This document shows positions 4,781 to 46,969 of a stretch of DNA of 46,969 bases, one piece after another. Positions within the stretch are counted from its first letter, which is position 1, and each line of letters begins with the position of its first letter. Source of the stretch: Candidatus Dojkabacteria bacterium (GTDB lineage Bacteria > Patescibacteriota > Dojkabacteria > JAHIVN01); contig JAQVGX010000001.1 in the NCBI GenBank assembly GCA_028696515.1, forward strand, positions 1 through 46,969. The letters are read 5' to 3'. The position numbers and the translations under genes are program-made. The notes beneath the pieces are model-generated. The model did no database searches. It was not told the origin of the DNA and saw nothing but the letters and a program-made list of their open reading frames with translations.

Positions 4781-4814
4781 GTAACTGGTTCAATGCCCCT
4801 GCATTGAACCAATG
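4781..4814 (+). repeat. Distal copy of the 34-bp repeat-plus-hairpin unit
   Basis: gtaactggttcaatgcccctgcattgaaccaatg matches 4567-4600 (gtagctggttcaatgccccagcattgaaccaatg) with 2 mismatches. The two copies are in direct orientation, with starts 214 bp apart. Confidence 0.85.
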
Positions 4815-4859
4815 TTACCTAACTATTCAATTAACTATTTAATCAATTACTTACAAAGC

Positions 4860-15704: not shown

Positions 15705-15890
15705 TAATTGTTCAAACAGATAGCACTAAGATTGATAATAGCAGTACACAAATAGAAATCGGAAATTATCAAACCGGAATTACAGATACCTCTTTTGTTT
15801 CTTTAACTGATGGGAAAATCTATATGTACGACCAAGATAAATACAATCCAAGTCCGGAGACTTCGGGAGATGTCTCATTTGAATCGACTT
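14289..15890 (+). repeat. Three tandem 534-bp (178-aa) coding repeats
   Basis: The unit starts CCTACAATAGAACAACAAAT at 14289 and 14823, and as CCCACCATTGAACAGCAAAT at 15357. The first ~115 nt of units 1 and 2 differ at only a few positions. Confidence 0.9.
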
Positions 15891-26598: not shown

Positions 26599-26636
26599 GT
26601 AGTCGAAAAAGCCTGTTGGATTTTGTTTTGTATACT

Positions 26637-29600: not shown

Positions 29601-32600
29601 CTAAGTGATACTCAAGGACAGTTCGGCGCAACTTATGAAGATGGTGACTATTTTGGATCCGCTCTAGGAAGCTTGGCAGATCTTGATGGTAACGGGGAAA
29701 GAGAACTCGTGGTAGGTGTTGAACGTGAGAGTAATAATTACACCTATGGCGACAGAGGAGCTATCTATACTATTTCTATTGATGCCGATGGAACAGTTAA
29801 CAGAACTTCTTCTGAAGTTGGAGGCTACGGATACGCTATTTTCACTAGCGGAACATATGGAAATGATCTTTTAATTCAAAGTGATGGGAAATACGTTATA
29901 TGTGGAGTTGACTATTCAGGATCCTACGCTCGAGACTTTGCCCTTTGGCGTATAAACAGCGATGGAAGCTTGGACACAACGTTTAATGGGGCTGGATATG
30001 TTACACACACTCATGCTGCAGGAGGTGGACTAGAGGAATGCTCCACCTTACAAGTTCAATCTGATGGCAAATATATAGCAGCAGGGTATGCAAGCAGCCC
30101 TGATAACCATAGTACAAACTACGAAATGACTCTTTGGCGCTATAACACCAACGGATCTTTAGATACCACCTTTGACAGTGATGGATATGCCGTATATTCA
30201 AATGCTGCAGGCGGATACGGACATGATTGGGGGAAGAGCTTAGAAATTGAAAACGATGGCCAGCCTACTATGAAATATGTAGTCGGAGGTTACAGCTGGA
30301 ATCCTGACCTTGATCCTGATATAGCTGTCTGGAGGTTAAATGAAAACGGTTCTCTGGACACAACTTTTCATAATCAAGGATATATAACTCTGGGAAATTC
30401 GGCTGGCGGAAATGATTCAGATGTTATTACTGATTTGGAGATTCAATCTGATGGGAAGTATATAATGGGCGGTTACTCTACTGGAACTGACGGCACATTC
30501 GATGCTGCAATTTGGAGATTGCAGGAACAAGGGGCAACAGGAGGAACAGGGATAGTCGTTTTCGAGGATAAAGAGCCTTATACAAGTTTATCTAAAACCA
30601 AAAGTTTATCGTCTTCTAATGTATTGGGGGATAATCAAGAGAACTTATCCGATAACTCTGAAGAGATAAAACACAAGGTCCAGCCATTGAAAAATAAGGT
30701 TAATTCTACTATTTCAAACATAATTTATACAACAAATACTTTAAACAAAACTGAGGCCCTCTCCTCAAAGATTTTATTAATTATAGGAATAATATCAATA
30801 AGTGGAACTGCAATAATTTGGATAAAATTTAAAAGATTATCAACTCCAAAATATCGAGATTTTAATCCTTTCGGTTTATACAAAAAAGAAACAGTCAACT
30901 ATAAACATTTACTTAGGAAACTTGCCTTTTCAGCTAATTCAAATCGAAAGCTCTTTATCGTACTCATTACACTTATCTTTACGATTGTAAACCTTTCGGT
31001 CCTACCTTTCGCAAAGAACACAAATGCTGCCTGGGATACAACATTCGATTCAGACGGATTCCTCTGGTATGATGAAGGTTACGGGTGGGATATTGGATAT
31101 GATTTGGAAATACTTCCTAGCGGAAAAATCTTGGTAGCAGGTTTTGTTACAAATTCTAGCGGGAATTGGGATATGGCTTTATGGCAATATAATAGTGATG
31201 GAACTCTTGACACGGCCAATTTCAACACCCCAAATGGATATGTTACCCATGACAGTGCAGCCGGTGGGGGTGATAGAGATAGTAGTTATTCATTGGCAGT
31301 TCAAACAGATGGGAAGATACTAGTAACAGGTTATAGTCTAAATTCAGCCTCAGACGGAGACCTTGTGATATGGAGATACAACAGTGACGGAACGATGGAT
31401 GATACTTTCGGTGACGGCAGTTGCAATAACGGGGTTGGTGTAGGATCCGATATGGGATGTGTGGTTCACCACAATGCAGCTGGTGGCGACGGGTATGATT
31501 CAGCTACTACAGTACTAGTCAATGATGCTGGTAAGATAATAGCTGTTGGATCAAGTGAAAACTCTCCAAGTACCTACGATTATAGTCTCGTAGTTTGGCA
31601 GTACAATAGTGATGGAACTATGGATGATACCTTTGGTGACGGCAGTTGCAATAATGGAGTTGGTGTTGGATCAGATATGGGATGTGTAGTTTTTCCAGGG
31701 CTAACAGCAGATGCAGATAACTGGAGCGACGGAGCTGTATTACAATCAGATGGAAAAATTGTAGCTGTCGGTTCTGCAGACAATGATACAAACTATTATG
31801 ATATGGCAATATGGAGATTCAATACTGACGGGACATTGGATGATACTTTCGGAGATGGGACTTGTAGTAATGGAGCAGGTATTAGTGGTGATATGGGTTG
31901 CGCTATTCACCATAATGCTGCAGGTGGCAATGATGACGACTTTGGAATTGCTGTAGCGATTGATGGTAATAATAATATTGTTGCAGCTGGATACAGTTAC
32001 AGCTCAACAAATGGTACAGATCTAGCTGTTTGGAGGTACAATTCTGACGGTGAACTGGATACCTCATTCAGCTCAGATGGATATACCTCTCATAATAGTG
32101 CAGCTGGAGGATCCTGGTGGGATTCTGGAGAAGATCTTGTTATCCAGAGCGACAACAAAATTGTTATCTCCGGGCAAAGTGATGACTCTGACGGTAATAC
32201 CGATATGACTATCTGGAGATATCAGACCGATGGAACACTAGACCCTTACTTCGGAGACGGAACATGCGTAAATGGAGTCAATTCAGGACACGGCTGTGTC
32301 AACCACAATGGTGATGAGGCTATTGCTGGCTTTAATGATGACTATGGTGGAGGAATAGATATAGTCGCTGATGGTACTTTTATCGTAAGTGGACAGGCAC
32401 AAGAAACTAACGTACAAAACAGAGATATGGCTATGTGGAAATTCATCCAAAGAAGCTACCAGATACTAAATCTAGATTCGTCTCTCAATGCAACCGACAG
32501 TTCAGGAAATAATGTTGAGGACGGATCAGCATATGGGTTAGAGGGGTCTTATACCATAAACATCACTGATACTTCGGGTAACTATATCGGCGAAGTATTG

Positions 32601-35460: not shown

Positions 35461-36831
35461 ATGAGAAAAAAGTTGGGAAAATTCGCAATATTAACGTCTG
35501 GGTTAGTACTTTTTTTGCAAATCTTTATGATTGCAGAAAACTTTACAGTTGAAGCTGCCACTATCACAGTAACCACAACTGCTGACGAATTCGGGCCAGG
35601 AAATGATTGTTCATTGAGAGAAGCTGTTCAGGCTGTGAATTCTGGGAGCCCGTATGGAGGATGCCCTGCTGGAGACGGATCAAACGACACCATCACACTA
35701 CCCGCGGGAACATTTACTCTGACGCTTGTTGGTAAAGATGAAGATTTAAATGCTACTGGAGATATTGATATAAGTGCAGATGTAACTATCATAGGAGCTG
35801 GAGCTAGCCAGACTATCATTAGCGGAAATGCAGGAGGGACAGCTGATGCTGACAAAGATAGGGTTTTCCATATAGCGGATAACGTAAGCGTGGAATTTTC
35901 AGATGTCACAATTCAAGATGGATACTATGAGAAGAGAAACGACCCGTTTAACTATACTGGATGGATTCATGGAGGAGGTATACTCTCGGGAGATGGATCT
36001 TCACTAAGAATCATAGATAGCGTAGTGCAAAATAATACAATACTCCGCGAAGACTCTCAAGCTTATGGCGGTGGAATATCTATTAGTGACGAAGATACAA
36101 CACTCCACATTGAAAACTCAAGTATTATCAATAATGAGCTTATCTTAGAAGATACAGACAAGGATGGATCTATGGGAGGTAGAGCTGCGGGTATAAGTGT
36201 CGAAGACATTTACGAAGGTATTGGCGATGATAATTCGGCTGGAGTAGATATTACAATCATTGATTCCGAAATAAGTGATAATACAGCTACTTGCGATATA
36301 GAACCTCCTGCTCTCTCCAGCTGGGCGTTCATAGAGGGCGTAGGATTGGAAGTGGATTATGTAAGAAGTTTCAGCATGGCAGACTCTCATATTAACAATA
36401 ATACAGCATATTTAAGAGATGGATATGTTAGTGCCTGGGGACCTGGGTTATTAATCTGGAGACTTGTGCAGGGAGGAACTATTCCTCAAATTTATGACTC
36501 CACAATAAACGGAAATACCTCCACAACTATTTCAGAAACTGACGTACTTGGATACGGAGCTGGTATTCTAAGTTATATTCCAATGGAAATAACAAGGACA
36601 CAGATAAATGGAAACGGACAAAATGTTACTTCTGGATGGGAATATGTTGAAAATTGGGGAGGAGGAATATTTATTGATGGCGGATCTGTTTCACAAACCT
36701 CGATAATTCGTCAGTGCACAATAAGCAATAACTATATCGATGTATCTATCGATACTGATTCTTCAGCAATGATTTTTGGGGCTGGCATATACCTAGATGG
36801 AGGAACCGTCGAAATTTCAACAACACGATAA
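35461..36831 (+). CDS. CSLREA/beta-helix surface protein, N-terminal segment (same gene as 36906-38018, interrupted by a frameshift)
   Basis: Signal peptide MRKKLGKFAILTSGLVLFLQIFMIAENFTVEA. CSLREA at 35608-35625. Collinear with aa ~2110-2500 of the giant ORF. It stops at ...VEISTTR* where the paralogue reads ...IELTNNTISGNE. Confidence 0.75.
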   Translation: MRKKLGKFAILTSGLVLFLQIFMIAENFTVEAATITVTTTADEFGPGNDCSLREAVQAVNSGSPYGGCPAGDGSNDTITLPAGTFTLTLVGKDEDLNATGDIDISADVTIIGAGASQTIISGNAGGTADADKDRVFHIADNVSVEFSDVTIQDGYYEKRNDPFNYTGWIHGGGILSGDGSSLRIIDSVVQNNTILREDSQAYGGGISISDEDTTLHIENSSIINNELILEDTDKDGSMGGRAAGISVEDIYEGIGDDNSAGVDITIIDSEISDNTATCDIEPPALSSWAFIEGVGLEVDYVRSFSMADSHINNNTAYLRDGYVSAWGPGLLIWRLVQGGTIPQIYDSTINGNTSTTISETDVLGYGAGILSYIPMEITRTQINGNGQNVTSGWEYVENWGGGIFIDGGSVSQTSIIRQCTISNNYIDVSIDTDSSAMIFGAGIYLDGGTVEISTTR

Positions 36832-36905: not shown

Positions 36906-38018
36906 ATGAATTGGGGAGCCGAAGTTGAGCTCTCCTTTAATACTATAGCCAATAACTCTGTACCGGAAACCTACTTTTTAATTCCTCCCGAAACAAATCC
37001 CCAAAAACTTGGAAGCGGATACTTCGAATGGGGAACAACAGTTATGAAATCAAATATATTTGACAATGACCAAGACGGAAATCAAAACTTTTTTGACGAA
37101 TCAGTTTACTGGGATGTTCCTCCATCTCCAAATACAACCTCACTAGGATACAATATCGATAGCGATAATTCTCTAATTAGCGTGATAACACCAGGTACAG
37201 AAGACCTGTATGATGATCCCGAGATTGATCCTTTGGCAGATAATGGAGGCACATTGTATACCCATGCACTTCCATTGACTAGTCCAGCCTTAGATTATTC
37301 TACAGACTGTACAGATGCTGGAGGTACTCCTGTCACAACAGATGAACGCCTTATCTCCCGTCCAATAGATGGTGATGAAAATGGTTCAGCCGTGTGTGAC
37401 AGCGGAGCATATGAATACAACCCCGAGCAATCGGTACCTTATTGCGGAGATGGAAACCTTGACGATGGAGAAGAATGTGACGACGGCAATAATCAGGATG
37501 GAGATGGGTGCAGTGCAACTTGTGAATTTGAAGAAGGAATTTTTCACAACTGTAACGAACACCTTGATTTTACATTTGATTATAACTTTGGTGATCCCTC
37601 TTGGTGGGATAGCGGCAATGCTCCTCCTGAAGATATAGACTGTATCTGGGAACAGACACAGGGGACTCAAACAATTCTATTCGATCCTGAAGCTGAAACT
37701 ATCACCGCCGGTACAGACAGCTCATATCCTCTCAGCATTTCTACTTCAATTGAATTTGAGAACACACCAACAAACAGGAATGAGACTTATGGGACACGAG
37801 CTGTATGCGGAACATGGATCAGCCCTGAAGAAACTTTCCTTGCTTCGGAGAAAATAGATTGCTGTGAGGACAGTATCATCCCGTTCTTACCCAAAACAGG
37901 AGAATTACCGAGTACATACAATCTTGATCTAAGTACCAGATACTGGGTCATGCTTGGGATCAATCTTATTCTTCTTGGTTTTTCATCCAAGATTTTAATT
38001 GACTATTTCAAGAAATAG
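36906..38018 (+). CDS. CSLREA/beta-helix surface protein, C-terminal segment with Cys-rich repeat and LPKTG anchor
   Basis: This frame is open and homologous upstream of the listed Met (NNTISGNWIDFNWN...). It has one CGDGNLDDGEECDDGNNQDGDGCS repeat. LPKTG at 37887-37901, then a TM helix and KK tail. Confidence 0.75.
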   Translation: MNWGAEVELSFNTIANNSVPETYFLIPPETNPQKLGSGYFEWGTTVMKSNIFDNDQDGNQNFFDESVYWDVPPSPNTTSLGYNIDSDNSLISVITPGTEDLYDDPEIDPLADNGGTLYTHALPLTSPALDYSTDCTDAGGTPVTTDERLISRPIDGDENGSAVCDSGAYEYNPEQSVPYCGDGNLDDGEECDDGNNQDGDGCSATCEFEEGIFHNCNEHLDFTFDYNFGDPSWWDSGNAPPEDIDCIWEQTQGTQTILFDPEAETITAGTDSSYPLSISTSIEFENTPTNRNETYGTRAVCGTWISPEETFLASEKIDCCEDSIIPFLPKTGELPSTYNLDLSTRYWVMLGINLILLGFSSKILIDYFKK

Positions 38019-38044: not shown

Positions 38045-39442
38045 TTAAGTCGTGGGAACACCTGAAAAAGGAGATACTGTAGCTCCCCCTTGATAGTCAA
38101 GAGGAACATCAACATTTATCACACCTCTTTTTGCATCCACCTTCATAAGACTATCATGAAAAGCCAGCTTGTCTTTTGGCACTAAACCGGAAGGAAACTT
38201 GTACCCTGTTGCAGAAGCAAGTAAAAGATAATCATTTTCCGGAACAAAGAACTGAAAAATACCATTTCTGTTTGCAATCTTTGAATCTACTAGCTCATTA
38301 TTCTCCGACTTGTAGAGCTTGACAAAACTAGGTGCTACCGGAGCTTTGGTTCCGCTGTCGTAGACATATCCCCATGCTCTTGGTTTCTTAGTCTCCCCAA
38401 GCAGTTTTAAAGACAAGAGGATAAAGTAAAGAATAGCAAACAATAAGTTGACAAAGTTAAATCTCAGAACTGTAACAAATAGATTTACTACAAACATAAA
38501 CGAAAGCATAAAGAAATTCCCCTGAAGAACAAAGGTTCTTAGTTTGACAAAAATTAATTTAAGAAACTGAAAGCTGATTCTAAATTTCTGGTCTTTAGAA
38601 TCAAGCGGGATGCTAAAATCGATTGTTGTATCATTCTGAATTGTAAATTCTCCGCCGGTGTATATATAACCCATTTTGTCTGAGTAGGTTGACTTGATTG
38701 AGCTTGATGGAAAAGAATATTCTTCATGTTGAACTTCTAATCTATATGTTCCCAACGAGACAGGGAATCCGTAACGGCCCTCCAAATCTGTAACAGTAGA
38801 CGCGATGAGAGTATTTGACTCTGCATCAAGAAGTCTTACGACAGCAAATGGAATAGGCTTGCTACCGCTTGAATCATATACCACGCCCCATAATCTTTTT
38901 AGAGATTTCTTTCCTAAGAAAGCTTGACTTACAAGACCAAATATACTGGCAGCTGTCGTGTTTGGGATAGAAAGTAGGGAAAGTACACTTAAAACTTGCA
39001 AACCTACGCCAGTTCCAACCACTATTTCTGTTGTGTTTACTGGATCACTTACAGTCTCAACAACAGACTTAAGTGCTTTATAAATAAATATATCTTCGCT
39101 GACACTGATTTTAATATCCCCGTCATTTTTAAAAGTTAAGCTTCTAACATCCATTATGGAAACAGTATTTGAAGAATTATTCTCATCACCAATTATTTGA
39201 TCATTTTCCAACTTGAAATCGCTATCGAGTTTCAATAATAAAGTTGCCCCATCTATCACCAAATCGGTTTCAGAGCAATCAAACTTCCCATCAATCATCT
39301 TATCCTGAGTCCAGATTGTATCTTTATTTATAGTTTCTTTTGAAGGACATTGATCAGCAGCATAAACATTACTGCTAAAATAGGAGAATGCCAACGAAGA
39401 TAAAAAGAACGTTATAATAAAGATGGCAGTATTTATTCTCAT
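38045..39442 (-). CDS. Polytopic membrane protein with two carboxypeptidase-regulatory-like (CarboxypepD_reg) domains
   Basis: Signal peptide MRINTAIFIITFFLSSLAFSYFSSNVYA. Several TM helices. Two copies of the G(V/Y)VYDS....P(I/V).....V(R/K)L.......(I/V).S...(D/N)..G.(Y/F).F pattern. Confidence 0.7.
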   Translation of the reverse strand: MRINTAIFIITFFLSSLAFSYFSSNVYAADQCPSKETINKDTIWTQDKMIDGKFDCSETDLVIDGATLLLKLDSDFKLENDQIIGDENNSSNTVSIMDVRSLTFKNDGDIKISVSEDIFIYKALKSVVETVSDPVNTTEIVVGTGVGLQVLSVLSLLSIPNTTAASIFGLVSQAFLGKKSLKRLWGVVYDSSGSKPIPFAVVRLLDAESNTLIASTVTDLEGRYGFPVSLGTYRLEVQHEEYSFPSSSIKSTYSDKMGYIYTGGEFTIQNDTTIDFSIPLDSKDQKFRISFQFLKLIFVKLRTFVLQGNFFMLSFMFVVNLFVTVLRFNFVNLLFAILYFILLSLKLLGETKKPRAWGYVYDSGTKAPVAPSFVKLYKSENNELVDSKIANRNGIFQFFVPENDYLLLASATGYKFPSGLVPKDKLAFHDSLMKVDAKRGVINVDVPLDYQGGATVSPFSGVPTT

Positions 39443-39523
39443 AATATTCCTTATTGCATTCGGTTTAGTTTACATCTATAATTTATAATATACTGACTTT
39501 AAATGCAATAAAGACTGCTCGGG

Positions 39524-42500
39524 ATGCTTGAACCTCAAATCGATCAAACAAACTATAGTCCTGAAAGAAAGCTCAAAATCGAAAATTTGGCAATATTTGT
39601 AGCACTGAGCGTCATCATTATTATTCTTTTTTTGTTACTCCGTGAGCCGGCAACCAATTTTGTTGAATCGATTGTAGAAAACGAACCATCGAAAGAAGAT
39701 CAACCTGAATCAGCAGTTAGCAGTTCAAAAACCATTGCTGAATACATAGGTGAGCTAAAAGAAGGAAATGCTATTACACTCACACCTACTATAAATGTAC
39801 TTGGAAATGTCATCAACGAAGAGGTAACAATTAACGACCTACCCGACACCGGTGAAGATGACCCTTGGGTAAATGTTATTGGCGACACGATGACAGGAGA
39901 TCTGACGATAACTGGGGGAGCTAACCTAATTCTTACTGATTCCGAAGACCTTGTTTTCAGCAACGTTTCACTCAAATCCTCACTTTCCAGACAAAACAGC
40001 GGAGCTTTCTTTGTAGGAACATTTGATGAATATGTCAATAGTGACAGCACCAACGTACAAGATGTGATGGATGATTTGGATGAAGCCATTGGCAGCCTTC
40101 AAAATAGAGTCGTTTATTGGAACGAAGCTTATAGCTGGGGAGACCACAGTATTGTTGGATATTTGACAGAAGAATCCGAAGAAACAGATCCTGTTTGGAC
40201 AGAAGCTGAGTCAAGCTACTTCAACATATCTGAAAACGAGTTAATTACTGGGTGGCCAAACTTTGCCGGGGGTCAGAGCGGTATAAGAGCACCTTTTAGA
40301 GTTGACAGTACATTTCTTGTGACAAATCTTAACGCTGATCTTCTCGACGGCTATCATGCCTCTGACTTTATGGGAGAAGGCGTAGATCTTTGGGTTGACG
40401 AGACAGGAGATACTATGTCTGGAATCTTAAATATGGGAGGTTACAGGATCGAAAATATAGCGGTACCAAACTCAAATGATGACGCAATTGATTTCGGCTC
40501 TGCTGAATCAAACTATATAAACGATGGAGCAGGAGAAATCAACGCTGTTGGAGATTTTAACTTTGCCGCAACAACTAATATCACAAATCTAAGCGCTGAT
40601 TATCTAGACAGCCAGGACAGCAGTTACTATCGCAATGTATCAAACATTAACGCCGGAACCTTAGGAAGTGCTTACTTCAGTGCATACTCAGATCTAAATG
40701 CCGAAGGATACGTGCCCGCTTCATCTACTACGATATGGACCAATACTAACGACGGGGCTGGCAGCGGACTTGACGCTGATCTGCTTGACGCTCAGACAGG
40801 CACCTACTATACAAACGCTTCCAATATAAACTCGGGCACATTGGGCACTGCTTATTATAGTGCATATGCTGATCTTACGGCCGAAAACTACCTGAATAAT
40901 GATGCCGGGACAGATCTACTGACACAAACCCAGTTAGATGGAAGATACATCAATAACACCGGAGATACTATGACTACCGCCGGATTGCCATTTTCCGGTA
41001 TTACAACTGATATTTATACTCCGAGCGGTGAAGCGCTTACTCTAAGTGCTCCTGGCGCACAAGATATAAATTTATACACAGGTTCAGGAGTAATAGGCAT
41101 AGGAACGACAACCTCTCTCGTTGAAGTTTCAAATGTATCGACTGCCTATTCTGATCATAAAGATCTCCTTATCAGATCAACCGGAACCAACCAGGCAACA
41201 TATTTTCGTGTTGCCCCAAATGGTACCCCGCCCGATTCAATTATATGGTCAACTGTGCAGGTCTTTGCTACAGACTGGTCAGCTGACCAGTCAAATGTTG
41301 AAGCCGTTGAGATGAGATTTAATCGGGATGCAGACGGCGCTCCAGGAAATCAATCAATTTTTCAAATTAACACCTATGCAGGAGGAACAGGAACCCTGCA
41401 TCCCCTTGCAATAACAGTAGACGATGAAGCATATAAAGGAATCTTCATCGATACCGGAGCAAATGTTGGTATTGGTTCAACTTCCCCTGCGCAAGAACTT
41501 GACGTAGAAGGAGACATCCAGCTCGATGCAAACGAGTCTGCAACTACAAATGGTTTATGTCATTCTGGAGCCAACTCGGATACAACTTTCACAGATCGCA
41601 ATATAGTAGCATGTTCATCAACCCCTGGTGATATAGCTGAATGGTATGACACAAAGGATGCCGAAGCCGGAGACATTGTATATACAACAGGTGAAAAAAT
41701 TACCTATATATCACCGGCTGTCAACGCCGAAACCGGAGAAGTTCTAAATCAGAATGAAAAGTTAACTGCAAGTATACTGGCAAAAAGCAACCGTCCTTAC
41801 CAAGCAAATATCTTGGGAGTAGTATCAACCTCTCCTTACGAATCTTTCGGCAAGGCTATCAATAAATATTCTTCAAACCCCAATCCTATAGCACTTACAG
41901 GACGCGTCCCAGTGAAAGTTGTCACTTACAACGGAGCTATAAAGCCGGGTGACCCTATCACAGCAAGCAGTATAGCTGGGGTAGGTATGAAAAGCACTAA
42001 ACCAGGGCATATCATTGGAATAGCATTAGACCATTATGACAGTATCAACCCTTATAAAGTTGGTAAAATACTGGTTTCCATCAACCTCAGCTGGTATGAG
42101 CCTGAGAGTTATCTCAAAAAGGTAAACGAAACAATTCAGGCATATGATATGTTGAGTACGCAGGGACAAATTGATATATTACCGGATCTCAATATAACCG
42201 ACACTTTAACAGCCAAAAATGCTTCAATCTTGTCGATTCAAGTGAAAGATATAACTGTTCAGAATAATCTTGAAGTTTCAGGAGTACTAACATCGAGGTC
42301 GATAAAAGCAGATACAATAGAATCTGCATTCTCCAAAAGTATCATTATCAAGCTGTCAGACCACTTGGGTAATACAGCATTCGAAGTACAAAACGATCAG
42401 AGCGAAAAAGTATTCAGCATTGATAGTAACGGAAAGATTTATATACTATCAGATTCTTCCAATACTTCTGTAGGATCAACAGTTTTATCTCCTGGAAATG

Positions 42501-42682
42501 AAGAGATAAGAGTAGAGACTAAGGCAGTAACATCTGACTCAAAGATATTTATTAGCCCGATTTCCACTTCTTCGATTCCGCCGAACGTATGGATTAAAGA
42601 AAAGGGAATTGGATTTTTCATCATCCGGCAAGAGGAAGTATCTGATCAAAACCTTGTGGTTGATTGGTGGGTCATCAATTAG
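39524..42682 (+). CDS. Membrane-anchored tail-fibre-like protein, paralogue 1 (1052 aa)
   Basis: N-terminal TM LAIFVALSVIIIILFLLL. LPDTGE at 39839-39853. GDTM(T/S)G three times, NADLLDGYHASDF, GANVGIGSTSP. C-terminal DIAEWY...AGDIV...ILGVVSTSP...LTGRVPVKV domain. Ends DWWVIN. Confidence 0.85.
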   Translation: MLEPQIDQTNYSPERKLKIENLAIFVALSVIIIILFLLLREPATNFVESIVENEPSKEDQPESAVSSSKTIAEYIGELKEGNAITLTPTINVLGNVINEEVTINDLPDTGEDDPWVNVIGDTMTGDLTITGGANLILTDSEDLVFSNVSLKSSLSRQNSGAFFVGTFDEYVNSDSTNVQDVMDDLDEAIGSLQNRVVYWNEAYSWGDHSIVGYLTEESEETDPVWTEAESSYFNISENELITGWPNFAGGQSGIRAPFRVDSTFLVTNLNADLLDGYHASDFMGEGVDLWVDETGDTMSGILNMGGYRIENIAVPNSNDDAIDFGSAESNYINDGAGEINAVGDFNFAATTNITNLSADYLDSQDSSYYRNVSNINAGTLGSAYFSAYSDLNAEGYVPASSTTIWTNTNDGAGSGLDADLLDAQTGTYYTNASNINSGTLGTAYYSAYADLTAENYLNNDAGTDLLTQTQLDGRYINNTGDTMTTAGLPFSGITTDIYTPSGEALTLSAPGAQDINLYTGSGVIGIGTTTSLVEVSNVSTAYSDHKDLLIRSTGTNQATYFRVAPNGTPPDSIIWSTVQVFATDWSADQSNVEAVEMRFNRDADGAPGNQSIFQINTYAGGTGTLHPLAITVDDEAYKGIFIDTGANVGIGSTSPAQELDVEGDIQLDANESATTNGLCHSGANSDTTFTDRNIVACSSTPGDIAEWYDTKDAEAGDIVYTTGEKITYISPAVNAETGEVLNQNEKLTASILAKSNRPYQANILGVVSTSPYESFGKAINKYSSNPNPIALTGRVPVKVVTYNGAIKPGDPITASSIAGVGMKSTKPGHIIGIALDHYDSINPYKVGKILVSINLSWYEPESYLKKVNETIQAYDMLSTQGQIDILPDLNITDTLTAKNASILSIQVKDITVQNNLEVSGVLTSRSIKADTIESAFSKSIIIKLSDHLGNTAFEVQNDQSEKVFSIDSNGKIYILSDSSNTSVGSTVLSPGNEEIRVETKAVTSDSKIFISPISTSSIPPNVWIKEKGIGFFIIRQEEVSDQNLVVDWWVIN

Positions 42683-42882
42683 TATAGGGAGAGATAGTAA
42701 TGATAATCCTATGACAGGGAAATGTTGACAAATTACATAGGCAAGGAAAAAGACAAAGCAGCCAGTTTGTTCTTCAAGTAAGGAAATACTTTAATCCTTA
42801 ACACATACCCGTCTTTCAAGCGGACCTCCCAACCTAACTCCAATGACTAAATCAACTCAATCAACACAGCCCTCAAATGATA

Positions 42883-42911
42883 TTGTAATGTCTCCCTTAA
42901 CTCTCTATAAT
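42883..42911 (+). promoter_or_regulatory. Sigma70-like promoter of paralogue 2
   Basis: TTGTAA (42883-42888), 17-nt spacer, perfect TATAAT (42906-42911), 41 nt before ATG 42952. Confidence 0.4.
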
Positions 42912-42951
42912 AATTAATAAATAAGTGAAGAAAACACCTTTTACTGCCTCT

Positions 42952-45900
42952 ATGAAGGAACAGAGTACAAACAATAAGTTGATTATTATAGCAGGACTGG
43001 TTGTTCTCGTTCTCATACTAGCATTACTTCTAAAACAACCAATTACGAGCCTCGTTAATCCATCAGCGCAGGACGATTCTTCATCTGATATCGAGGGGAC
43101 TCAAAGCAGAACAGTTACAGAGTATATCACCGAACTTAAAGAGGGCAAACCTTCTACCTTTACTCCAAAAATAGAAGTTCTCGGAGACGTTATTTATGAA
43201 GATTACTCTACAACCACTCTCCCAGAAACAGGTGAAACTACCATAGATGACATTTGGGTAAATACAACTGGTGATACTATGACTGGAAACCTCTCCATCA
43301 CCAAAGACGGTACTCTTGTTCTGCCCAGAATTGAATCTTTGATTTTTAATTCATCTACCTTAGGGGATACTAACTCAGCCTCAGACAGTGGTGCATTTCT
43401 GATAGGTGCTTTTGATGAATTTACAAACAGTGACAACACAAATGTTCAAGCCATTCTTGACGATCTTGATAAGGCTATTTCAGATCTGGAATCGTCTATA
43501 CCTTCTATAACTGAATCCGATCCTATTTTTTCAGCCAGTCCAGCTGCCTCAATTACGAATACATACATTTCTCATTGGAATGCAGCTTATTCTTGGGGTG
43601 ACCATGCCCTGATAGGTTACCTCACCTCAGAGTCTGATCCTGTTTGGACAGCAGCTGAACCCAGCTACTTTAATAGAACCCAGAATGAAACCGTAACCGG
43701 AATTCCTAGTTTCAATGGAGGTCTTAGCGGAAGTACAGCACCTTTTACAGTTGACAGCACATATATGATTTCAAATCTAAATGCCGACCTTCTTGATGGC
43801 TATCATGCTGCCGATTTTATGGGCGGAGGTATTGATCTGTGGATTGATGAAACAGGTGATACTATGCTTGGAGATTTGATACTAAGCGGAGCTGATATTA
43901 ACATTGGAACTAACAATTTAATAACCGGATCTAACTCTCTTTCTTCTTCTGAGTTAGATATTCTTGATTCTGGAATCAACTTTTCAGAGCTTAGCGGCAC
44001 ACTTGGCGATACTCAGATATCAGTAGGAGCCGTGGACTTGGATACGACTGAAGTAGCTGGAATACTTCCGATAGCAAACGGTGGCACCAATGCATCCTCA
44101 TATACGACAAATGAATTCCTCTGGTACAACGGAACAAGAATAGTATCAAGCGGATATGATCAAAACGATTTTATGCCAGCTGTTACCGACAATTGGGTAG
44201 ATGAGGCGGGAGATACTATGACTGGAACACTTATCTTCTCTGGGGTTGCTACTGATATAACAACTGCAGGCGGAGAGGCAATTACTATATCTGCACCTGG
44301 AGCTGGTCACATAATTTTGGATGCAGGAACTGGAAATGTAGGGATTGGTACCACCAATCCTTTAGCAACACTTGATCTTCAGGGGGATGGAATAATCCGA
44401 GGAGATCTTGTAATACGTGAAACGACACCGGATACTGAAGCTTGGGACTCTATCAGTACGATAAATGCTCCACTAGCAAGAGACAGTCATTCAGCAGTCT
44501 GGACCGGCAGCGAAATGATTATCTGGGGTGGGAGATATAGTTCTGGAGCTTATAATACGGGAGGTATTTACGATCCAGAAACGGACTCCTGGACAGCAAC
44601 AACTACCACAGCAGCTCCTACCGCAAGACAAGTACATGCGAGCATATGGTCAGGTAGTAAGATGATTATACTTGGAGGTCTTAGTGGAGGCGGATCTTGT
44701 CTAAGTTCAGGTGGTATCTATGATCCTGGCACAGACAGTTGGACAGCAACATCAACTACTGGTGCCCCAACTGATATATCAGACAAAACTACCATATGGA
44801 CTGGCAACAAATTCATAGTCTGGGGAGGAGTTTGCTCAGATCTCAATACTGGATCTATCTATGATCCTATCTTGGATACATGGACTTCAATTTCGACATC
44901 AGGGGCACCTACAGCCAGATCAGGACATACCGTAGTCTGGACCGGAAAGAAAATGATAGTTTGGGGAGGCATATCTGGAATCAACTATTTAAATAGTGGC
45001 GGAATGTACGATCCGGAAACAGATACCTGGACAACTATTACAACGACCGGAGCTCCATCAGCAAGAGCAGTCCCTGAACTAGTCTGGACAGGAGACAAAG
45101 TAATAGTCTTTGATGGGTTCAACTACAACTTTAATCCCTCTTCTCCTTCCTGGGGTGGTATCTATGATCCTGAAACCAATAGTTGGCTCTCAGTATCCTT
45201 TGGATCAGGAAGAGAAAGTGGTGCAGTTGTCTGGACAGGAAATAGAATGACCAGATGGGGAGGCATGACAGCAACTCCGGCAACAGTTTCCGGCACAGGT
45301 GTCATTTACGATATAGAAACAAACTCACTCGTATCCATGCTTGATGTAGGAGATCCATCAGCAAGATATGCACATACAGCGATTTGGACCGGAAACCAGA
45401 TCATCATATGGGGAGGAAACACATCATATGGTTATTTAAACGATGGAGGTATATATACATCACCTACAGAGAAAGGTGGAAAGCTTTATGTACAAGGAGA
45501 GGCTACCATCGATGACAATCTTTTTGTAAGTAAAACAATAACTGCTGGGGGAATTCACAGTGAGGGCGGAGCAGATATAGCAGAGTACTACCCCACAATT
45601 GATCCATCTATCGAAGCAGGAGATGTAGTCTCAATCAGCGATAATACTCAGATAGAAAAATCAAATACATTATACGGGTCAAAATTAATTGGGGTCGTAT
45701 CGACTAACCCGGGTGTTACCTTATCATCAAAAGAGACAAACCCTTCATCAAAAGAGTATCGTCTTGTAGCACTTGCCGGAAGAGTGCCAGTAAAATTTAC
45801 TACAGAGAACGGCACAGTAAAAGGAGGAGATTATCTAGTTTCTTCTTCTACGCCGGGAACAGCTATGAGTGCCTGCGGACCCAAATACTGCATGAGCGGA

Positions 45901-46545
45901 ATGTCAATCGGAACTGCTCTTGAAGATGTAAATTCTGACGGTCTAGTCCTTCTGTTCGTCAACCTTACCTGGTACCAACCAGAAAGCACTAGACTAAAAC
46001 TTGAAAAAATAATCGCTGAATATGAAGACGGAAATCTTGACATAATTGACAATCTCACGGTTACCCAAAAGCTAAGTGCCGACGTCGCATCCTTCAAATC
46101 TGTCACTATCAATGATCTAGTAGTTGATAATCGATTAAAGGTAGCTGGTTTACTGACAGCTTCAAATATTAGAACAGGCATCATTGAATCAATCAATACT
46201 TCTGATATCATAGTACGATTATCTGATCACCTTGGCTCCACTGCTTTTAGGATAGAAGATGAGAATGAGAAAATGATTTTTCAAATCGACAGCGCAGGGA
46301 AAATTCAACTAAAAGAAGATCCACAATCACCTTCGATAGGAGAAGGGACTATAACAAGTGGAAATGATCAAGTGAGAATCAGAACAAAGAGTGTCGGTGA
46401 CAATTCAAGAATCTTCATTACTCCTACTGTAACAACCGATAAACAGCTTTCAGTCACCGAGAAGGCCTCTGATGATTATTTCTTGGTAACAATATCATCC
46501 CCAGTGGACTATGATATTACCTTCGATTGGTGGATTATCAATTAA
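42952..46545 (+). CDS. Membrane-anchored tail-fibre-like protein, paralogue 2, with a 7-blade Kelch-like beta-propeller insert
   Basis: I prefer ATG 42952 (MKEQSTNNK...) because it matches the paralogue 3 start; the track uses GTG 42925. TM LIIIAGLVVLVLILALLL. LPETGE at 43219-43233. GDTM(T/L)G three times, NADLLDGYHAADF, GNVGIGTTNP. Seven W(T/S)G..(M/I/F)I.(W/L/F)(G/D)G blades. ADIAEYY...AGDVV...LIGVVSTNP...LAGRVPVKF. Ends DWWIIN. Confidence 0.85.
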   Translation: MKEQSTNNKLIIIAGLVVLVLILALLLKQPITSLVNPSAQDDSSSDIEGTQSRTVTEYITELKEGKPSTFTPKIEVLGDVIYEDYSTTTLPETGETTIDDIWVNTTGDTMTGNLSITKDGTLVLPRIESLIFNSSTLGDTNSASDSGAFLIGAFDEFTNSDNTNVQAILDDLDKAISDLESSIPSITESDPIFSASPAASITNTYISHWNAAYSWGDHALIGYLTSESDPVWTAAEPSYFNRTQNETVTGIPSFNGGLSGSTAPFTVDSTYMISNLNADLLDGYHAADFMGGGIDLWIDETGDTMLGDLILSGADINIGTNNLITGSNSLSSSELDILDSGINFSELSGTLGDTQISVGAVDLDTTEVAGILPIANGGTNASSYTTNEFLWYNGTRIVSSGYDQNDFMPAVTDNWVDEAGDTMTGTLIFSGVATDITTAGGEAITISAPGAGHIILDAGTGNVGIGTTNPLATLDLQGDGIIRGDLVIRETTPDTEAWDSISTINAPLARDSHSAVWTGSEMIIWGGRYSSGAYNTGGIYDPETDSWTATTTTAAPTARQVHASIWSGSKMIILGGLSGGGSCLSSGGIYDPGTDSWTATSTTGAPTDISDKTTIWTGNKFIVWGGVCSDLNTGSIYDPILDTWTSISTSGAPTARSGHTVVWTGKKMIVWGGISGINYLNSGGMYDPETDTWTTITTTGAPSARAVPELVWTGDKVIVFDGFNYNFNPSSPSWGGIYDPETNSWLSVSFGSGRESGAVVWTGNRMTRWGGMTATPATVSGTGVIYDIETNSLVSMLDVGDPSARYAHTAIWTGNQIIIWGGNTSYGYLNDGGIYTSPTEKGGKLYVQGEATIDDNLFVSKTITAGGIHSEGGADIAEYYPTIDPSIEAGDVVSISDNTQIEKSNTLYGSKLIGVVSTNPGVTLSSKETNPSSKEYRLVALAGRVPVKFTTENGTVKGGDYLVSSSTPGTAMSACGPKYCMSGMSIGTALEDVNSDGLVLLFVNLTWYQPESTRLKLEKIIAEYEDGNLDIIDNLTVTQKLSADVASFKSVTINDLVVDNRLKVAGLLTASNIRTGIIESINTSDIIVRLSDHLGSTAFRIEDENEKMIFQIDSAGKIQLKEDPQSPSIGEGTITSGNDQVRIRTKSVGDNSRIFITPTVTTDKQLSVTEKASDDYFLVTISSPVDYDITFDWWIIN

Positions 46546-46638
46546 TCAGTATGCGTCTCAATCCTAAACAAAGCTAGCGTGATGTTAAGCACCTGTTTAT
46601 ATTCTTATATGTTAATGTACTAAACCTATACAATTACT

Positions 46639-46667
46639 TTGCAGTTTCAGAACATAAACTTTATAAT
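46639..46667 (+). promoter_or_regulatory. Sigma70-like promoter of paralogue 3
   Basis: TTGCAG (46639-46644), 17-nt spacer, perfect TATAAT (46662-46667), 48 nt before ATG 46715. Confidence 0.35.
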
Positions 46668-46714
46668 GAGTATTAATATATCACAGAGAGTATAGATTTT
46701 GTTTAACCTCCTTC

Positions 46715-46969
46715 ATGAAGGAACAGAATAAAGGCAACAACCTCATATTTTTGGCAGGATTGATCGTTCTCGTCATTATACTGGCACTGCTTCTAAAACA
46801 ACCAATTGCATCCCTTGTTAACCCCTCCTCAAATGATACTTCTACTTCTGACGTAGAAGGCGCTCAAGGCAAAACAATTACAGATTATATTACTGAACTT
46901 AAGGACGGAAGAGTTTCTACTTTTACTCCAAAAATAGAGGTTTTGGGAGATATCATTTATGAAGATTAT
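46715..46969 (+). CDS. Membrane-anchored tail-fibre-like protein, paralogue 3 (3' end cut by window edge)
   Basis: Not in the ORF track because no stop is reached. The translation MKEQNKGNNLIFLAGLIVLVIILALLLKQPIASLVNPSS...TDYITELKDGRVSTFTPKIEVLGDIIYEDY is roughly 75% identical by eye to the N-terminus of paralogue 2. Confidence 0.8.
   Translation, partial: MKEQNKGNNLIFLAGLIVLVIILALLLKQPIASLVNPSSNDTSTSDVEGAQGKTITDYITELKDGRVSTFTPKIEVLGDIIYEDY

What the first reader, a model, noticed from the sequence alone, without database searches (positions are those of the whole stretch)
39524..46969. Tandem family of N-terminally membrane-anchored proteins built from phage tail-fibre modules (candidate cell-surface fibre or attachment system)
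Three consecutive same-strand genes make up the family: 1052 aa, ~1197 aa, and a third cut by the window end. Two of them have their own TTGxxx-17-TATAAT promoter. They share a short cytoplasmic N-terminus, a single TM helix and a ~60-aa spacer, followed by motifs I associate with phage tail fibres and tailspikes. Those motifs are GDTM(T/S/L)G three times per protein, NADLLDGYHA(S/A)DF, and G(A/N)NVGIG(S/T)T(S/N)P. The centre is unrelated between paralogues. The last ~330 aa are conserved again. They begin with (G/A)DIAE(W/Y)Y...AGD(I/V)V...(I/L)(L/I)GVVST.P...L(T/A)GRVPVK(V/F). This resembles the intramolecular-chaperone autoproteolytic C-terminal domains (Peptidase_G2 type, D-Y-A-E-Y-F ... 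G-x-F-V ... I-L-G-V-V-S) of phage appendages. The proteins end with a further ~190-aa conserved region and DWW(V/I)IN. No capsid, portal, terminase, tail-tube, baseplate, integrase or lysis genes are nearby, and the neighbours are alaS and other cellular surface proteins. So this appears to be a cellular gene family that displays tail-fibre-like trimers from the cell's own membrane, with cassette-like exchange of the putative receptor-binding centre. In a small-genome, possibly episymbiotic organism this is a strong candidate for a host- or prey-recognition apparatus. I am not aware of a characterised system with this architecture.
Basis: partly seen in the sequence, partly recalled or inferred. 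Interest (0 to 1): 0.8.

Follow-up and report, generated by a model that had tools for sequence, protein, structure and literature searches.

The report
Membrane-anchored phage-fibre-like surface proteins
A tiny, probably host-dependent bacterium (Candidatus Dojkabacteria) encodes a tandem family of cell-membrane-anchored proteins built from phage tail-fibre parts plus a phage-type self-assembly domain; they are good, untested candidates for how such bacteria grip their partners, and a similar idea is already known from the predator Bdellovibrio.

Summary
Genes g1 (39524-42682, 1052 aa), g2 (42952-46545, 1197 aa) and truncated g3 (from 46715) are paralogues. Each has one N-terminal hydrophobic helix. 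g1 and g2 share a shaft and about 370 C-terminal residues, but their centres are unrelated (a Kelch propeller in g2).

The shaft matches phage tail fibres. The first C-terminal domain (C1) is a distant relative of the phi29 gp12 autochaperone (Peptidase_G2). Its invariant D-x-A-E aligns with the first residues of the cleaved gp12 fragment, and the predicted fold agrees.

The genes are cellular. No phage genes lie in 39 kb upstream. In two syntenic relatives the fibre pair is followed by His_Phos, GT2 and MurB genes.

The orthologue pair compared is under purifying selection, and a centre has been swapped between genomes. The C1 family is widespread in Patescibacteria. Some members place 100-390 cytoplasmic residues before the helix, so it acts as an anchor.

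Trimerisation, self-cleavage and a role in host attachment are all untested. The closest known system is the Bdellovibrio MAT fibre family, so this is a new variant of a known kind. Interest 0.6.

The parts
39454..39482 (+). Promoter-like site upstream of g1 (TTGCAT-17-TATAAT)
   Evidence: Read from the sequence. It is a consensus match only and was not listed by the scan, because the -35 box matches 3 of 6.
39524..42682 (+). g1, 1052-aa fibre-like protein (PHS44_00145)
   Evidence: ORF. It is identical to P0001, named Candidatus Dojkabacteria.
39584..39640 (+). g1 single hydrophobic helix (aa 21-39), read as an N-in signal anchor
   Evidence: Kyte-Doolittle 19-residue mean 3.08, and the only such segment. 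It is conserved in the orthologues L001a and L082a. Relatives have long cytoplasmic domains before their helix.
39641..39853 (+). g1 acidic/Ser-rich linker plus the conserved 'EYIGELKEG..TP.I.VLG' segment (aa 40-110)
   Evidence: Alignment of g1 with g2. Among the 120 hits of the first search, this stretch was matched only by P0001 and P0002.
39854..41080 (+). g1 shaft made of phage tail-fibre modules (aa 111-519)
   Evidence: phrog_5342 'tail fiber' E=7e-11. 119 of 120 database hits map to this region, and many carry tail-fibre Pfam domains.
41081..41620 (+). g1 variable 'centre' (aa 520-699): one NVGIGT-type repeat module
   Evidence: Unrelated to the g2 centre. It is 89% identical to the orthologue, the best-conserved segment. 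The module recurs in 9,981 representative proteins. The AF2 model has low confidence.
41621..42109 (+). g1 C1 domain (aa 700-862), a gp12/Peptidase_G2-like assembly domain; putative cleavage site G702|D703 at nt 41627-41632
   Evidence: The profile hits 3gqh_A at its residue 1. AF2 pLDDT exceeds 90 here. Foldseek finds 3gqh_A and BFVD 'Preneck appendage protein' entries. D and E are invariant.
42110..42679 (+). g1 C2 module (aa 863-1052): helix, long beta-hairpins and a terminal beta-sandwich ending in DWWVIN
   Evidence: AF2 model. Weak Pfam K1-lyase_C hit, E=0.018. The terminal motif is conserved in distant relatives. No viral-contig relative reaches this module.
42883..42911 (+). Promoter-like site upstream of g2 (TTGTAA-17-TATAAT)
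   Evidence: A consensus match only.
42952..46545 (+). g2, 1197-aa paralogue (ATG start preferred over GTG 42925)
   Evidence: g3 and L001b start at the equivalent position, and DNA similarity to g3 begins 13 nt upstream of the ATG.
42979..43035 (+). g2 hydrophobic helix (aa 10-28)
   Evidence: Kyte-Doolittle mean 3.17.
44425..45501 (+). g2 variable centre: Kelch beta-propeller (aa ~492-850)
   Evidence: Pfam Kelch families, E=1.4e-42. DNA repeats with a period of about 147-150 nt.
45559..45987 (+). g2 C1 domain (aa 870-1012); putative cleavage site A874|D875 at nt 45571-45576
   Evidence: Peptidase_G2 at 21.8 bits, E=1.4e-4, below the 25-bit cut-off. phrog_19602 'tail fiber' matches aa 873-990.
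45988..46542 (+). g2 C2 module ending in DWWIIN
   Evidence: 36% identity to g1 C2. K1-lyase_C hit, E=0.018.
46638..46667 (+). Promoter-like site upstream of g3 (TTTGCA-18-TATAAT)
   Evidence: A consensus match only.
46715..46969 (+). g3, the first 85 codons of a third paralogue, cut by the contig end
   Evidence: 73% identity to the g2 N-terminus. Its probable continuation is P0327 on another contig of the same MAG.
38045..39442 (-). Divergently transcribed 465-aa membrane protein with CarboxypepD_reg domains; a conserved neighbour and possible partner
   Evidence: Pfam hit. The same gene sits in the same position and orientation in L082. L001 has a cut, unannotated ORF there. Any functional link is inferred only.

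Best explanation
g1, g2 and g3 are cellular genes of a Candidatus Dojkabacteria (Patescibacteria/CPR) bacterium. They encode surface fibres assembled from parts that are otherwise typical of phage receptor-binding proteins.

Proposed mechanism:
1. Each chain is inserted through the Sec pathway as a type II protein, N-terminus in and C-terminus out. It is held by one N-terminal helix.
2. An acidic linker of about 70 residues carries the chain across the wall.
3. A shaft of about 400 residues, made of tail-fibre repeats, projects outward.
4. An exchangeable module follows. It is an NVGIGT module in g1 and a Kelch propeller in g2. It is a beta-helix in the relative P0024.
5. The last ~370 residues are an assembly device. 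C1 is a distant phi29-gp12-type (Peptidase_G2-like) intramolecular chaperone that brings three chains into register. C2 is a beta-rich extension ending in a K1-lyase-C-like beta-sandwich cap.
6. Most likely C1+C2 is cut off at the conserved (G/A)|D-I-A-E once the trimer has formed. The exchangeable module would then be the distal tip.

The fibres most plausibly bind a partner cell, prey cell or polysaccharide surface.

Shown here: the domain order, the homologies, the cellular context, purifying selection on g1, and module swapping. Inferred: membrane topology, trimer formation, cleavage, and the adhesive function.
For: Paralogy and mosaic structure.

A single N-terminal hydrophobic helix occurs in all paralogues and orthologues. 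Relatives with the same C1+C2 end carry 100-390 cytoplasmic residues before their only helix. These residues include MerR-type HTH or Phage_int_SAM domains. The helix therefore cannot be a cleaved signal peptide in those proteins.

Tail-fibre nature of the shaft:
- phrog_5342 'tail fiber' E=7e-11.
- Hits carrying PF21882, PF13884, PF03903 and PF12571.
- Annotated tail fibres of cultured cyanophages and Alteromonas phages, 46-61% identity over 44-74 aa, E down to 3e-10.

Relation of C1 to gp12:
- The profile of 16 sequences hits PDB 3gqh_A. D-i-A-E aligns to residues 1-4 (DFAE) of the cleaved fragment, E=0.0038.
- Mature gp12* ends at residue 691 (PMC6542822).
- 6 of 16 family members hit Pfam Peptidase_G2.
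- g2 C1 scores 21.8 bits. Relatives P0135 and P0137 score 26.0 and 26.6 bits against a cut-off of 25.
- The AF2 model has pLDDT 84 overall and above 90 in C1.
- Foldseek finds 3gqh_A with probability 1.00 and E=6.7e-3. In BFVD it finds 'Preneck appendage protein' entries at E~1e-9.
- D and E of D-x-A-E are invariant in 43 sequences.

Cellular context: searches cover the window. Searches cover the syntenic loci downstream. One search covers two further CPR loci.

Selection: synonymous sites are saturated and dN is 0.06-0.25 between g1 and its orthologue. The centre is the most conserved part, at 89% identity. g2 and the gene at its position in L082 share the N-terminal part (73%) but not the centre (22%).

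Distribution: about 20 of the 25 genome loci are from Patescibacteria.

No defence-system match was found.
Against: - No multimer model, no localisation data and no proteomics exist. Trimerisation, topology and cleavage all rest on homology.
- The Peptidase_G2 signal is sub-threshold for g2 and absent for g1, whose C1 has a ~40-aa insertion.
- C1 is not the end of the protein. The same fold also occurs in phage capsid cement proteins, which are not cleaved.
- The closest Pfam match of the C2 end, the K1-lyase C-terminal sandwich, is a retained trimer lock (PMC8822698).
- As I recall (Xiang et al. 2009, not readable here), release of the gp12 fragment needs ATP, which is absent outside the cell.
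- The putative tip module of g1 could not be modelled (pLDDT 58). It is a common repeat unit rather than an obvious binding domain.
- No ligand or partner organism is known.
Confidence: 0.6

Rival explanations
1. The architecture is the same, but the C-terminal C1+C2 region is not cleaved. It stays on as a permanent trimerisation cap. The conserved C2 beta-sandwich (DWWVIN) would then be the true distal tip, and the variable centre a lateral or accessory domain.
For: C1 is followed by 190 further conserved residues, ending in a motif kept across distant relatives. The terminal sandwich weakly matches K1-lyase_C, which is a retained trimer-locking dome (PMC8822698). The C1 fold also matches uncleaved capsid cement proteins. 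P22 tailspike keeps its C-terminal autochaperone (PMC3357383).
Against: D and E of D-x-A-E are invariant in 43 sequences. The motif aligns exactly with the start of the cleaved gp12 fragment. Between orthologues C2 is the least conserved segment (65%) and the centre the most conserved (89%). That is the pattern expected if the centre is functional and C2 disposable. Many relatives end right after C1.
Confidence: 0.25
2. The genes are left-over or recently acquired tail-fibre genes of a prophage, tailocin or other phage-like element, with no cellular surface role.
For: The shaft modules and C1 are phage-typical. 221 IMG/VR contigs encode C1 relatives. A cultured jumbo phage, PA5oct, has a C1-like domain in a virion protein. 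The window ends inside g3, so its own downstream side is unseen.
Against: No phage structural, packaging, integrase or lysis genes lie in 39.5 kb upstream. In two syntenic relatives the fibre pair is flanked within 0.1-0.2 kb by cellular genes on both sides. An N-terminal membrane helix replaces any virion-attachment domain. ORFs of more than 1000 codons remain intact although synonymous sites are saturated. No viral relative reaches C2.
Confidence: 0.05
3. The proteins are exported and the hydrophobic segment is removed as a signal peptide. The fibres would then be released or held on the wall by other means, and would act as enzymes or as matrix or S-layer-like components rather than as specific adhesins.
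For: Some CPR relatives have classical signal peptides instead, for example L093, L094 and L099. The relative P0024 carries a Beta_helix/NosD module typical of depolymerases. The neighbourhood is rich in other surface proteins, including an LPXTG protein.
Against: The hydrophobic core is 18-19 residues long and has no A-x-A-like site directly after it (sequence). Family members have long cytoplasmic domains in front of the helix. No catalytic domain was detected in g1 or g2.
Confidence: 0.1

Closest known systems
Bdellovibrio bacteriovorus MAT (mosaic adhesive trimer) fibre family (Caulton et al. 2024, PMC10769870)
   Same: Both are chromosomal, non-phage, multi-paralogue families of long fibres resembling phage tail fibres. 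Both have a conserved cell-proximal N-terminus and mosaic, swapped distal modules. In many MAT members a C-terminal self-cleaving intramolecular chaperone is present. Both share the GNVGIG-type repeat, with a weak profile hit to 8ond_A (Bd2133), E=0.074. In Bdellovibrio the function is prey recognition.
   Different: MATs have a cleaved signal peptide and a conserved ~130-aa beta-rich N-domain, in a diderm predator. The window's proteins have an uncleaved-looking membrane helix plus an acidic linker, in a presumably monoderm CPR cell. The MAT chaperone is Peptidase_S74 (SDxxxK). Here it is a gp12/G2-like domain (D-x-A-E) followed by an extra C2 module. There is no significant overall sequence similarity.
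Bacillus phage phi29 pre-neck appendage gp12 C-terminal autochaperone (Pfam Peptidase_G2, PDB 3GQH/3SUC)
   Same: C1 aligns to the fragment from its first residue (DFAEYF against DIAEWY/DIAEYY). It shares the downstream G-x-V and GV(I/V)S elements and the predicted fold. It also sits C-terminal to a fibre or spike.
   Different: The score is sub-threshold (21.8 bits for g2, no hit for g1). g1 has a ~40-aa insertion. C1 is followed by 190 more residues. The carrier protein is membrane-anchored and cellular, not a virion appendage. Cleavage and ATP dependence are unknown.
Phage tail fibres and tailspikes with removable C-terminal chaperones (K1F endosialidase and T5 pb1, Peptidase_S74)
   Same: The logic is the same: attachment end, then shaft, then receptor-binding tip, then a disposable C-terminal trimerisation domain. 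Many database relatives of the shaft carry PF13884.
   Different: No S74 domain is present in g1 or g2. The N-terminus is a membrane anchor. The genes are not in a phage genome.
Trimeric autotransporter adhesins (YadA/Hia type)
   Same: These are cell-encoded trimeric fibrous adhesins with modular, exchangeable head and stalk cassettes, and a terminal domain that drives trimerisation.
   Different: Trimeric autotransporter adhesins are anchored by a C-terminal outer-membrane beta-barrel in diderms. Here the anchor is an N-terminal inner-membrane helix and the polarity is reversed. No homology was detected.

Membership tests
Peptidase_G2 (phi29 gp12-type IMC autoproteolytic domain, PF11962) | Match to the Pfam model at or above the gathering score (25 bits) | tested here: inconclusive
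   g1 has no hit, either full-length or as C1 alone. g2 C1 alone scores 21.8 bits, E=1.4e-4. Family relatives P0135 and P0137 score 26.0 and 26.6 bits. 6 of 16 aligned members hit, best E=1.2e-4.
Peptidase_G2 (phi29 gp12-type IMC autoproteolytic domain, PF11962) | Acidic D-x-x-E motif at the N-terminal boundary, where gp12 is cut (mature gp12* = residues 1-691; fragment starts DFAEYFES) | tested here: met
   D703-I-A-E706 in g1 and D875-I-A-E878 in g2. The profile alignment puts D-i-A-E on residues 1-4 of 3gqh_A. D and E are invariant in alignments of 16 and 43 sequences. The gp12* boundary is from PMC6542822.
Peptidase_G2 (phi29 gp12-type IMC autoproteolytic domain, PF11962) | Fold of the gp12 C-terminal fragment | tested here: met
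   The AF2 model has pLDDT above 90 over C1. Foldseek finds 3gqh_A at E=6.7e-3, probability 1.00, TM 0.48 normalised by target, and 3suc at E=0.06. BFVD 'Preneck appendage protein' entries score E~1e-9 with TM up to 0.63. The match is modest, and the same fold also matches capsid cement proteins.
Peptidase_G2 (phi29 gp12-type IMC autoproteolytic domain, PF11962) | Domain forms the extreme C-terminus of a trimeric fibre or spike | tested here: not met
   In g1 and g2 C1 is followed by the 190-aa C2 module. Many relatives do end right after C1.
Peptidase_G2 (phi29 gp12-type IMC autoproteolytic domain, PF11962) | Post-trimerisation self-cleavage and release of the domain | not testable with these tools
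   This needs proteomics or recombinant expression with D-to-A and E-to-A mutants.
Bdellovibrio MAT fibre family | Cleaved signal peptide followed by the conserved ~130-aa beta-rich N-terminal domain (PMC10769870) | tested here: not met
   The N-terminus here is a short cytoplasmic tail, an 18-19-residue helix and an acidic linker. Among the 120 hits of the first search, the N-terminal 110 aa matched only P0001 and P0002.
Bdellovibrio MAT fibre family | C-terminal Peptidase_S74 chaperone (SDxxxK) or one of the known non-S74 tips | tested here: not met
   No PF13884 hit in g1 or g2. There is only a weak profile hit to Bd2133 (8ond_A), E=0.074, over a GNVGIG-type stretch.
Bdellovibrio MAT fibre family | Multi-paralogue chromosomal family with mosaic distal modules | tested here: met
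   At least four family members are in this MAG: g1, g2, g3/P0327 and P0121. Centres are swapped between paralogues and between genomes.
Bdellovibrio MAT fibre family | Surface display and binding of prey or partner | not testable with these tools
   No culture, imaging or binding data are available.
Phage/prophage/tailocin tail fibre (virion component) | Tail-fibre sequence modules | tested here: met
   PHROG tail-fibre families. Hits with tail-fibre Pfam domains. Annotated tail fibres of cultured phages.
Phage/prophage/tailocin tail fibre (virion component) | Encoded within a cluster of phage structural or packaging genes | tested here: not met
   Window genes are cellular. Syntenic loci L001 and L082 have cellular genes on both sides. 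Two further CPR loci are also cellular.
Phage/prophage/tailocin tail fibre (virion component) | N-terminal domain that attaches to a baseplate or tail | tested here: not met
   The N-terminus is a membrane helix plus linker. No Pfam or PHROG match covers aa 1-110.

The most novel reading that the evidence does not exclude
Patescibacteria have domesticated phage receptor-binding fibres as their own host-recognition organelle. These would be membrane-anchored trimeric fibres matured by a gp12-like self-removing chaperone. Their swapped tip cassettes would set partner range, much as tail fibres set phage host range. In some lineages the same fibre is fused, through its single helix, to a cytoplasmic DNA-binding domain (MerR-type HTH or integrase SAM-like). 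That would give a direct line from surface contact to the chromosome.
Probability: 0.2. Interest if true: 0.85.

Novelty: new variant of a known kind. Interest (0 to 1): 0.6.

Why it matters
How ultrasmall CPR/Patescibacteria find and hold their partner cells is largely unknown beyond type IV pili and unnamed 'adhesins' (PMC11665869).

This family gives concrete, testable candidates. It has a defined anchor, a defined putative cleavage site and exchangeable tips, and it occurs in many CPR classes. If the fibres bind partners, tip cassettes could be used to predict host range from metagenomes.

It would also show that the Bdellovibrio solution, cell-owned phage-like fibres, arose independently in a monoderm episymbiont. 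The anchor and chaperone here differ from those in Bdellovibrio.

The finding also extends the gp12/G2-type autochaperone from virions to cellular surface proteins. As I recall, the phi29 authors raised this possibility for bacterial adhesins, but I could not read that paper here.

Tried and rejected
- Full-length Pfam gave only Kelch (g2) and a weak K1-lyase_C hit. A single-sequence PDB search gave nothing meaningful.
- PADLOC gave no defence-system match for g1, g2 or three neighbours.
- tblastn against cultured phages found nothing for g1 C1 or the g1 shaft. Only g2's shaft and a relative's C1 gave hits.
- The exhaustive search with g1's centre was dominated by the NVGIGT repeat and did not reveal a specific tip family.
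- AF2 of that centre reached only pLDDT 58. I ran no fold search on it because the result would be meaningless.
- P0121's contig could not be fetched. That biases the taxonomic survey towards close relatives.
- The protein comparison output for L001b against g2 did not show the main alignments. I recomputed them with BLASTP.
- dN/dS ratios could not be given for most segments because dS is saturated.
- No tRNA gene is in the window.
- I rejected the prophage remnant, the wrong-start artefact and a defence system as explanations.

Full report
**1. What is there**

The window is the complete 46,969-bp contig of a metagenome-assembled Candidatus Dojkabacteria genome. g1 is identical to NCBI protein PHS44_00145.

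Three same-strand ORFs fill its 3' end:
- g1, 39524-42682, 1052 aa.
- g2, 1197 aa from ATG 42952 (a GTG at 42925 is also possible), ending at 46545.
- g3, from ATG 46715, cut after 85 codons.

g1 and g2 align over aa 40-553 (38% identity, E=2e-89) and aa 686-1052 (35%, E=1e-56), with nothing alignable in between. g3 is 73% identical to the start of g2. The DNA similarity begins only 13 nt before the ATG.

One deviates: g1's third copy reads GDTMTT. Each gene has a perfect TATAAT with a TTGxxx-like -35 box 35-70 nt upstream. Such sites are not enriched over shuffles in the region, so this is weak evidence.

**2. The N-terminus**

Each protein has exactly one strongly hydrophobic 19-residue window (Kyte-Doolittle mean 3.1-3.2) within the first 40 residues. 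An acidic, Ser-rich linker follows.

The segment is kept in the orthologues L001a and L082a, and in L001b. The stretch just after it is conserved between paralogues. A wrong start codon therefore cannot explain it.

More distant proteins with the same C-terminal domains carry 100-390 cytoplasmic residues in front of their only helix:
- P0050 and P0106 have MerR-type HTH domains.
- L083 and L086 have Phage_int_SAM domains.

In this family the helix therefore acts as an N-in signal anchor. For g1-g3 themselves, the topology is inferred.

**3. The shaft**

g1 hits PHROG tail-fibre families (phrog_5342, E=7e-11). 119 of the 120 best database relatives align to aa 111-540. Many of them carry tail-fibre Pfam domains: gp53-like, Peptidase_S74, T4 gp36 and DUF3751.

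g2's shaft matches annotated tail fibres of cultured cyanophages and Alteromonas phages. These matches show 46-61% identity over 44-74 residues, with E down to 3e-10. The similarity is modular (3-40% of the query), as expected for fibre repeats.

**4. The centre**

- g2 has a Kelch beta-propeller (E=1.4e-42), with DNA repeats of about 147-150 nt.
- g1 has one copy of a module ending in GNVGIGTTsPxxxLxVxG.
- That module is repeated 10-50 times in giant proteins and occurs in 9,981 representative proteins.
- It could not be modelled as a monomer (pLDDT 58).
- A relative, P0024, has a Beta_helix/NosD module in this position.

**5. The C-terminus**

It splits into C1 (about 165 aa) and C2 (about 190 aa).

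A 16-sequence C1 profile hits PDB 3gqh_A, the cleaved C-terminal fragment of phi29 gp12. D-i-A-E aligns to its residues 1-4 (DFAE), E=0.0038. Mature gp12* ends at residue 691 (PMC6542822).

Pfam results for Peptidase_G2:
- 6 of 16 members hit the model.
- g2 C1 alone scores 21.8 bits.
- Relatives P0135 and P0137 score 26.0 and 26.6 bits, against a cut-off of 25.
- g1, which has a ~40-aa insertion, does not hit.

An AF2 model of g1 aa 678-1052, built from 43 sequences, has mean pLDDT 84 and above 90 across C1. Foldseek finds phage capsid cement proteins and 3gqh_A in the PDB (probability 1.00, E=6.7e-3). In BFVD it finds phage proteins, including 'Preneck appendage protein' entries, at E=1e-10 to 1e-9 with 21-26% identity.

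D and E of D-x-A-E are invariant in 43 sequences.

C2 consists of a helix, long beta-hairpins and a terminal beta-sandwich. The sandwich weakly matches K1-lyase_C, a trimer-locking dome in that enzyme (PMC8822698). The terminal (D/N)WW(V/I)IN motif recurs in Dojkabacteria, Roizmanbacteria, Woesebacteria and Saccharibacteria proteins.

In IMG/VR, 221 contigs encode C1 relatives but none extends into C2. A C1-like domain sits in a virion protein of the jumbo phage PA5oct.

**6. Context**

Upstream genes are cellular. They include ABC transporter genes, PheRS-like and AlaRS genes, AdoHcy hydrolase, PfkB, prephenate dehydratase and a AAA/Lon-like ATPase. There is also a cluster of surface proteins.

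The window ends in g3, but two syntenic relatives show the far side. These are JGI contig L001 and Patescibacteria MAG contig L082. Their gene order is: giant DUF5122/FG-GAP protein, CarboxypepD_reg membrane protein on the opposite strand, two fibre genes, then His_Phos_1, GT2 and MurB. L001 starts inside a cut, unannotated ORF at the position of the CarboxypepD_reg gene, so the genes upstream of the fibre pair were confirmed only in L082.

Two further CPR loci, L089 and L083, are also cellular.

**7. Evolution**

Between g1 and its orthologue, synonymous sites are saturated and dN is 0.06-0.25. The centre is the best-conserved part (89% identity) and C2 the least (65%).

g2 and the gene at its position in L082 share the N-terminal part (73%) but have unrelated centres (22%). 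L001b combines a g2-like N-terminus with a g1-like C-terminus. This is direct evidence for module exchange.

The same MAG holds further members. P0121 is the C-terminal 412 aa of another paralogue. P0327 starts at the equivalent of g2 aa 106, about 20 residues after the window breaks off. It is probably the rest of g3. It has four ~67-aa repeats and a Cys-rich end with no C1/C2.

A genome scan biased towards close relatives returned 25 loci, about 20 of them from Patescibacteria classes.

**8. Interpretation**

The best reading is a cell-owned, N-terminally anchored fibre whose C-terminal 370 residues are an assembly device. The order 'conserved anchor and shaft, variable module, conserved C-terminus' is what one expects if the C-terminus is a disposable chaperone. 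The variable module would then become the tip, as in phi29 gp12, K1F endosialidase, T5 pb1 and the S74-type Bdellovibrio MAT fibres (PMC3357383, PMC10769870).

The main rival keeps C1+C2 as a permanent cap. A prophage remnant and a secreted, signal-peptide-cleaved protein are less likely.

Adhesion to a partner is plausible from the CPR lifestyle and the Bdellovibrio precedent, but it has not been tested.

**9. Novelty**

The concept, phage-fibre-like adhesins encoded by a cell, is established for Bdellovibrio. Three things differ here: the anchor (membrane helix), the chaperone type (gp12/G2-like plus C2) and the lineage (CPR). I found no description of this family in the searched literature. 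It is a new variant of a known kind.

Noticed in passing
P0050, P0106 (metagenome proteins); L083:7535-12232; L086:7382-11893: Relatives with the same C1+C2 end have a cytoplasmic DNA-binding domain, then a single membrane helix at aa ~100-390, then the extracellular fibre. The DNA-binding domain is a MerR-type HTH or a Phage_int_SAM domain. This looks like a membrane-tethered DNA-binding protein fused to a surface fibre.
   Followed up: partly
P0327 (PHS44_06265) and P0121 (PHS44_04765), other contigs of the same MAG: P0327 begins about 20 residues after the point where g3 is cut, so it is probably its continuation. It has four ~67-aa repeats and a Cys-rich C-terminus without C1/C2. P0121 is the C-terminal 412 aa of yet another paralogue.
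   Followed up: partly
window 41081-41620 (g1 aa 520-699): The module ending in GNVGIGTTsPxxxLxVxG is a repeat unit of giant proteins of 2,000-7,400 aa, with up to 51 matched stretches per protein. 9,981 representative proteins match at E<=1e-3. Its structure and role are unknown.
   Followed up: partly
window 36906-38018: This 370-aa DUF4215 protein ends in LPKTGE, a hydrophobic stretch and KK. That is a sortase LPXTG sorting signal, implying a wall-anchoring sortase system in this organism.
   Followed up: no
window 26616-35435, 35461-36831 and 22096-23703 (-): A surface-protein island lies upstream. It holds a 2939-aa FG-GAP/DUF5122 beta-propeller protein with DUF4215 repeats, a 456-aa signal-peptide protein without Pfam hits, and another DUF4215 protein. 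The giant protein is syntenic in L082.
   Followed up: no
window 38045-39442 (-): A 465-aa membrane protein with two CarboxypepD_reg-like domains is transcribed divergently from g1, 81 nt away. It keeps this position in L082, and L001 has a cut, unannotated ORF there. It is a possible functional partner of the fibres.
   Followed up: partly
window 4812-5975 and 23932-25875: A 387-aa protein combines the PheRS class II core with an FDX-ACB domain, an arrangement that resembles single-chain PheRS. The AlaRS is short, at 647 aa.
   Followed up: no
window 15824-18778: A 984-aa ORF has no Pfam match.
   Followed up: no
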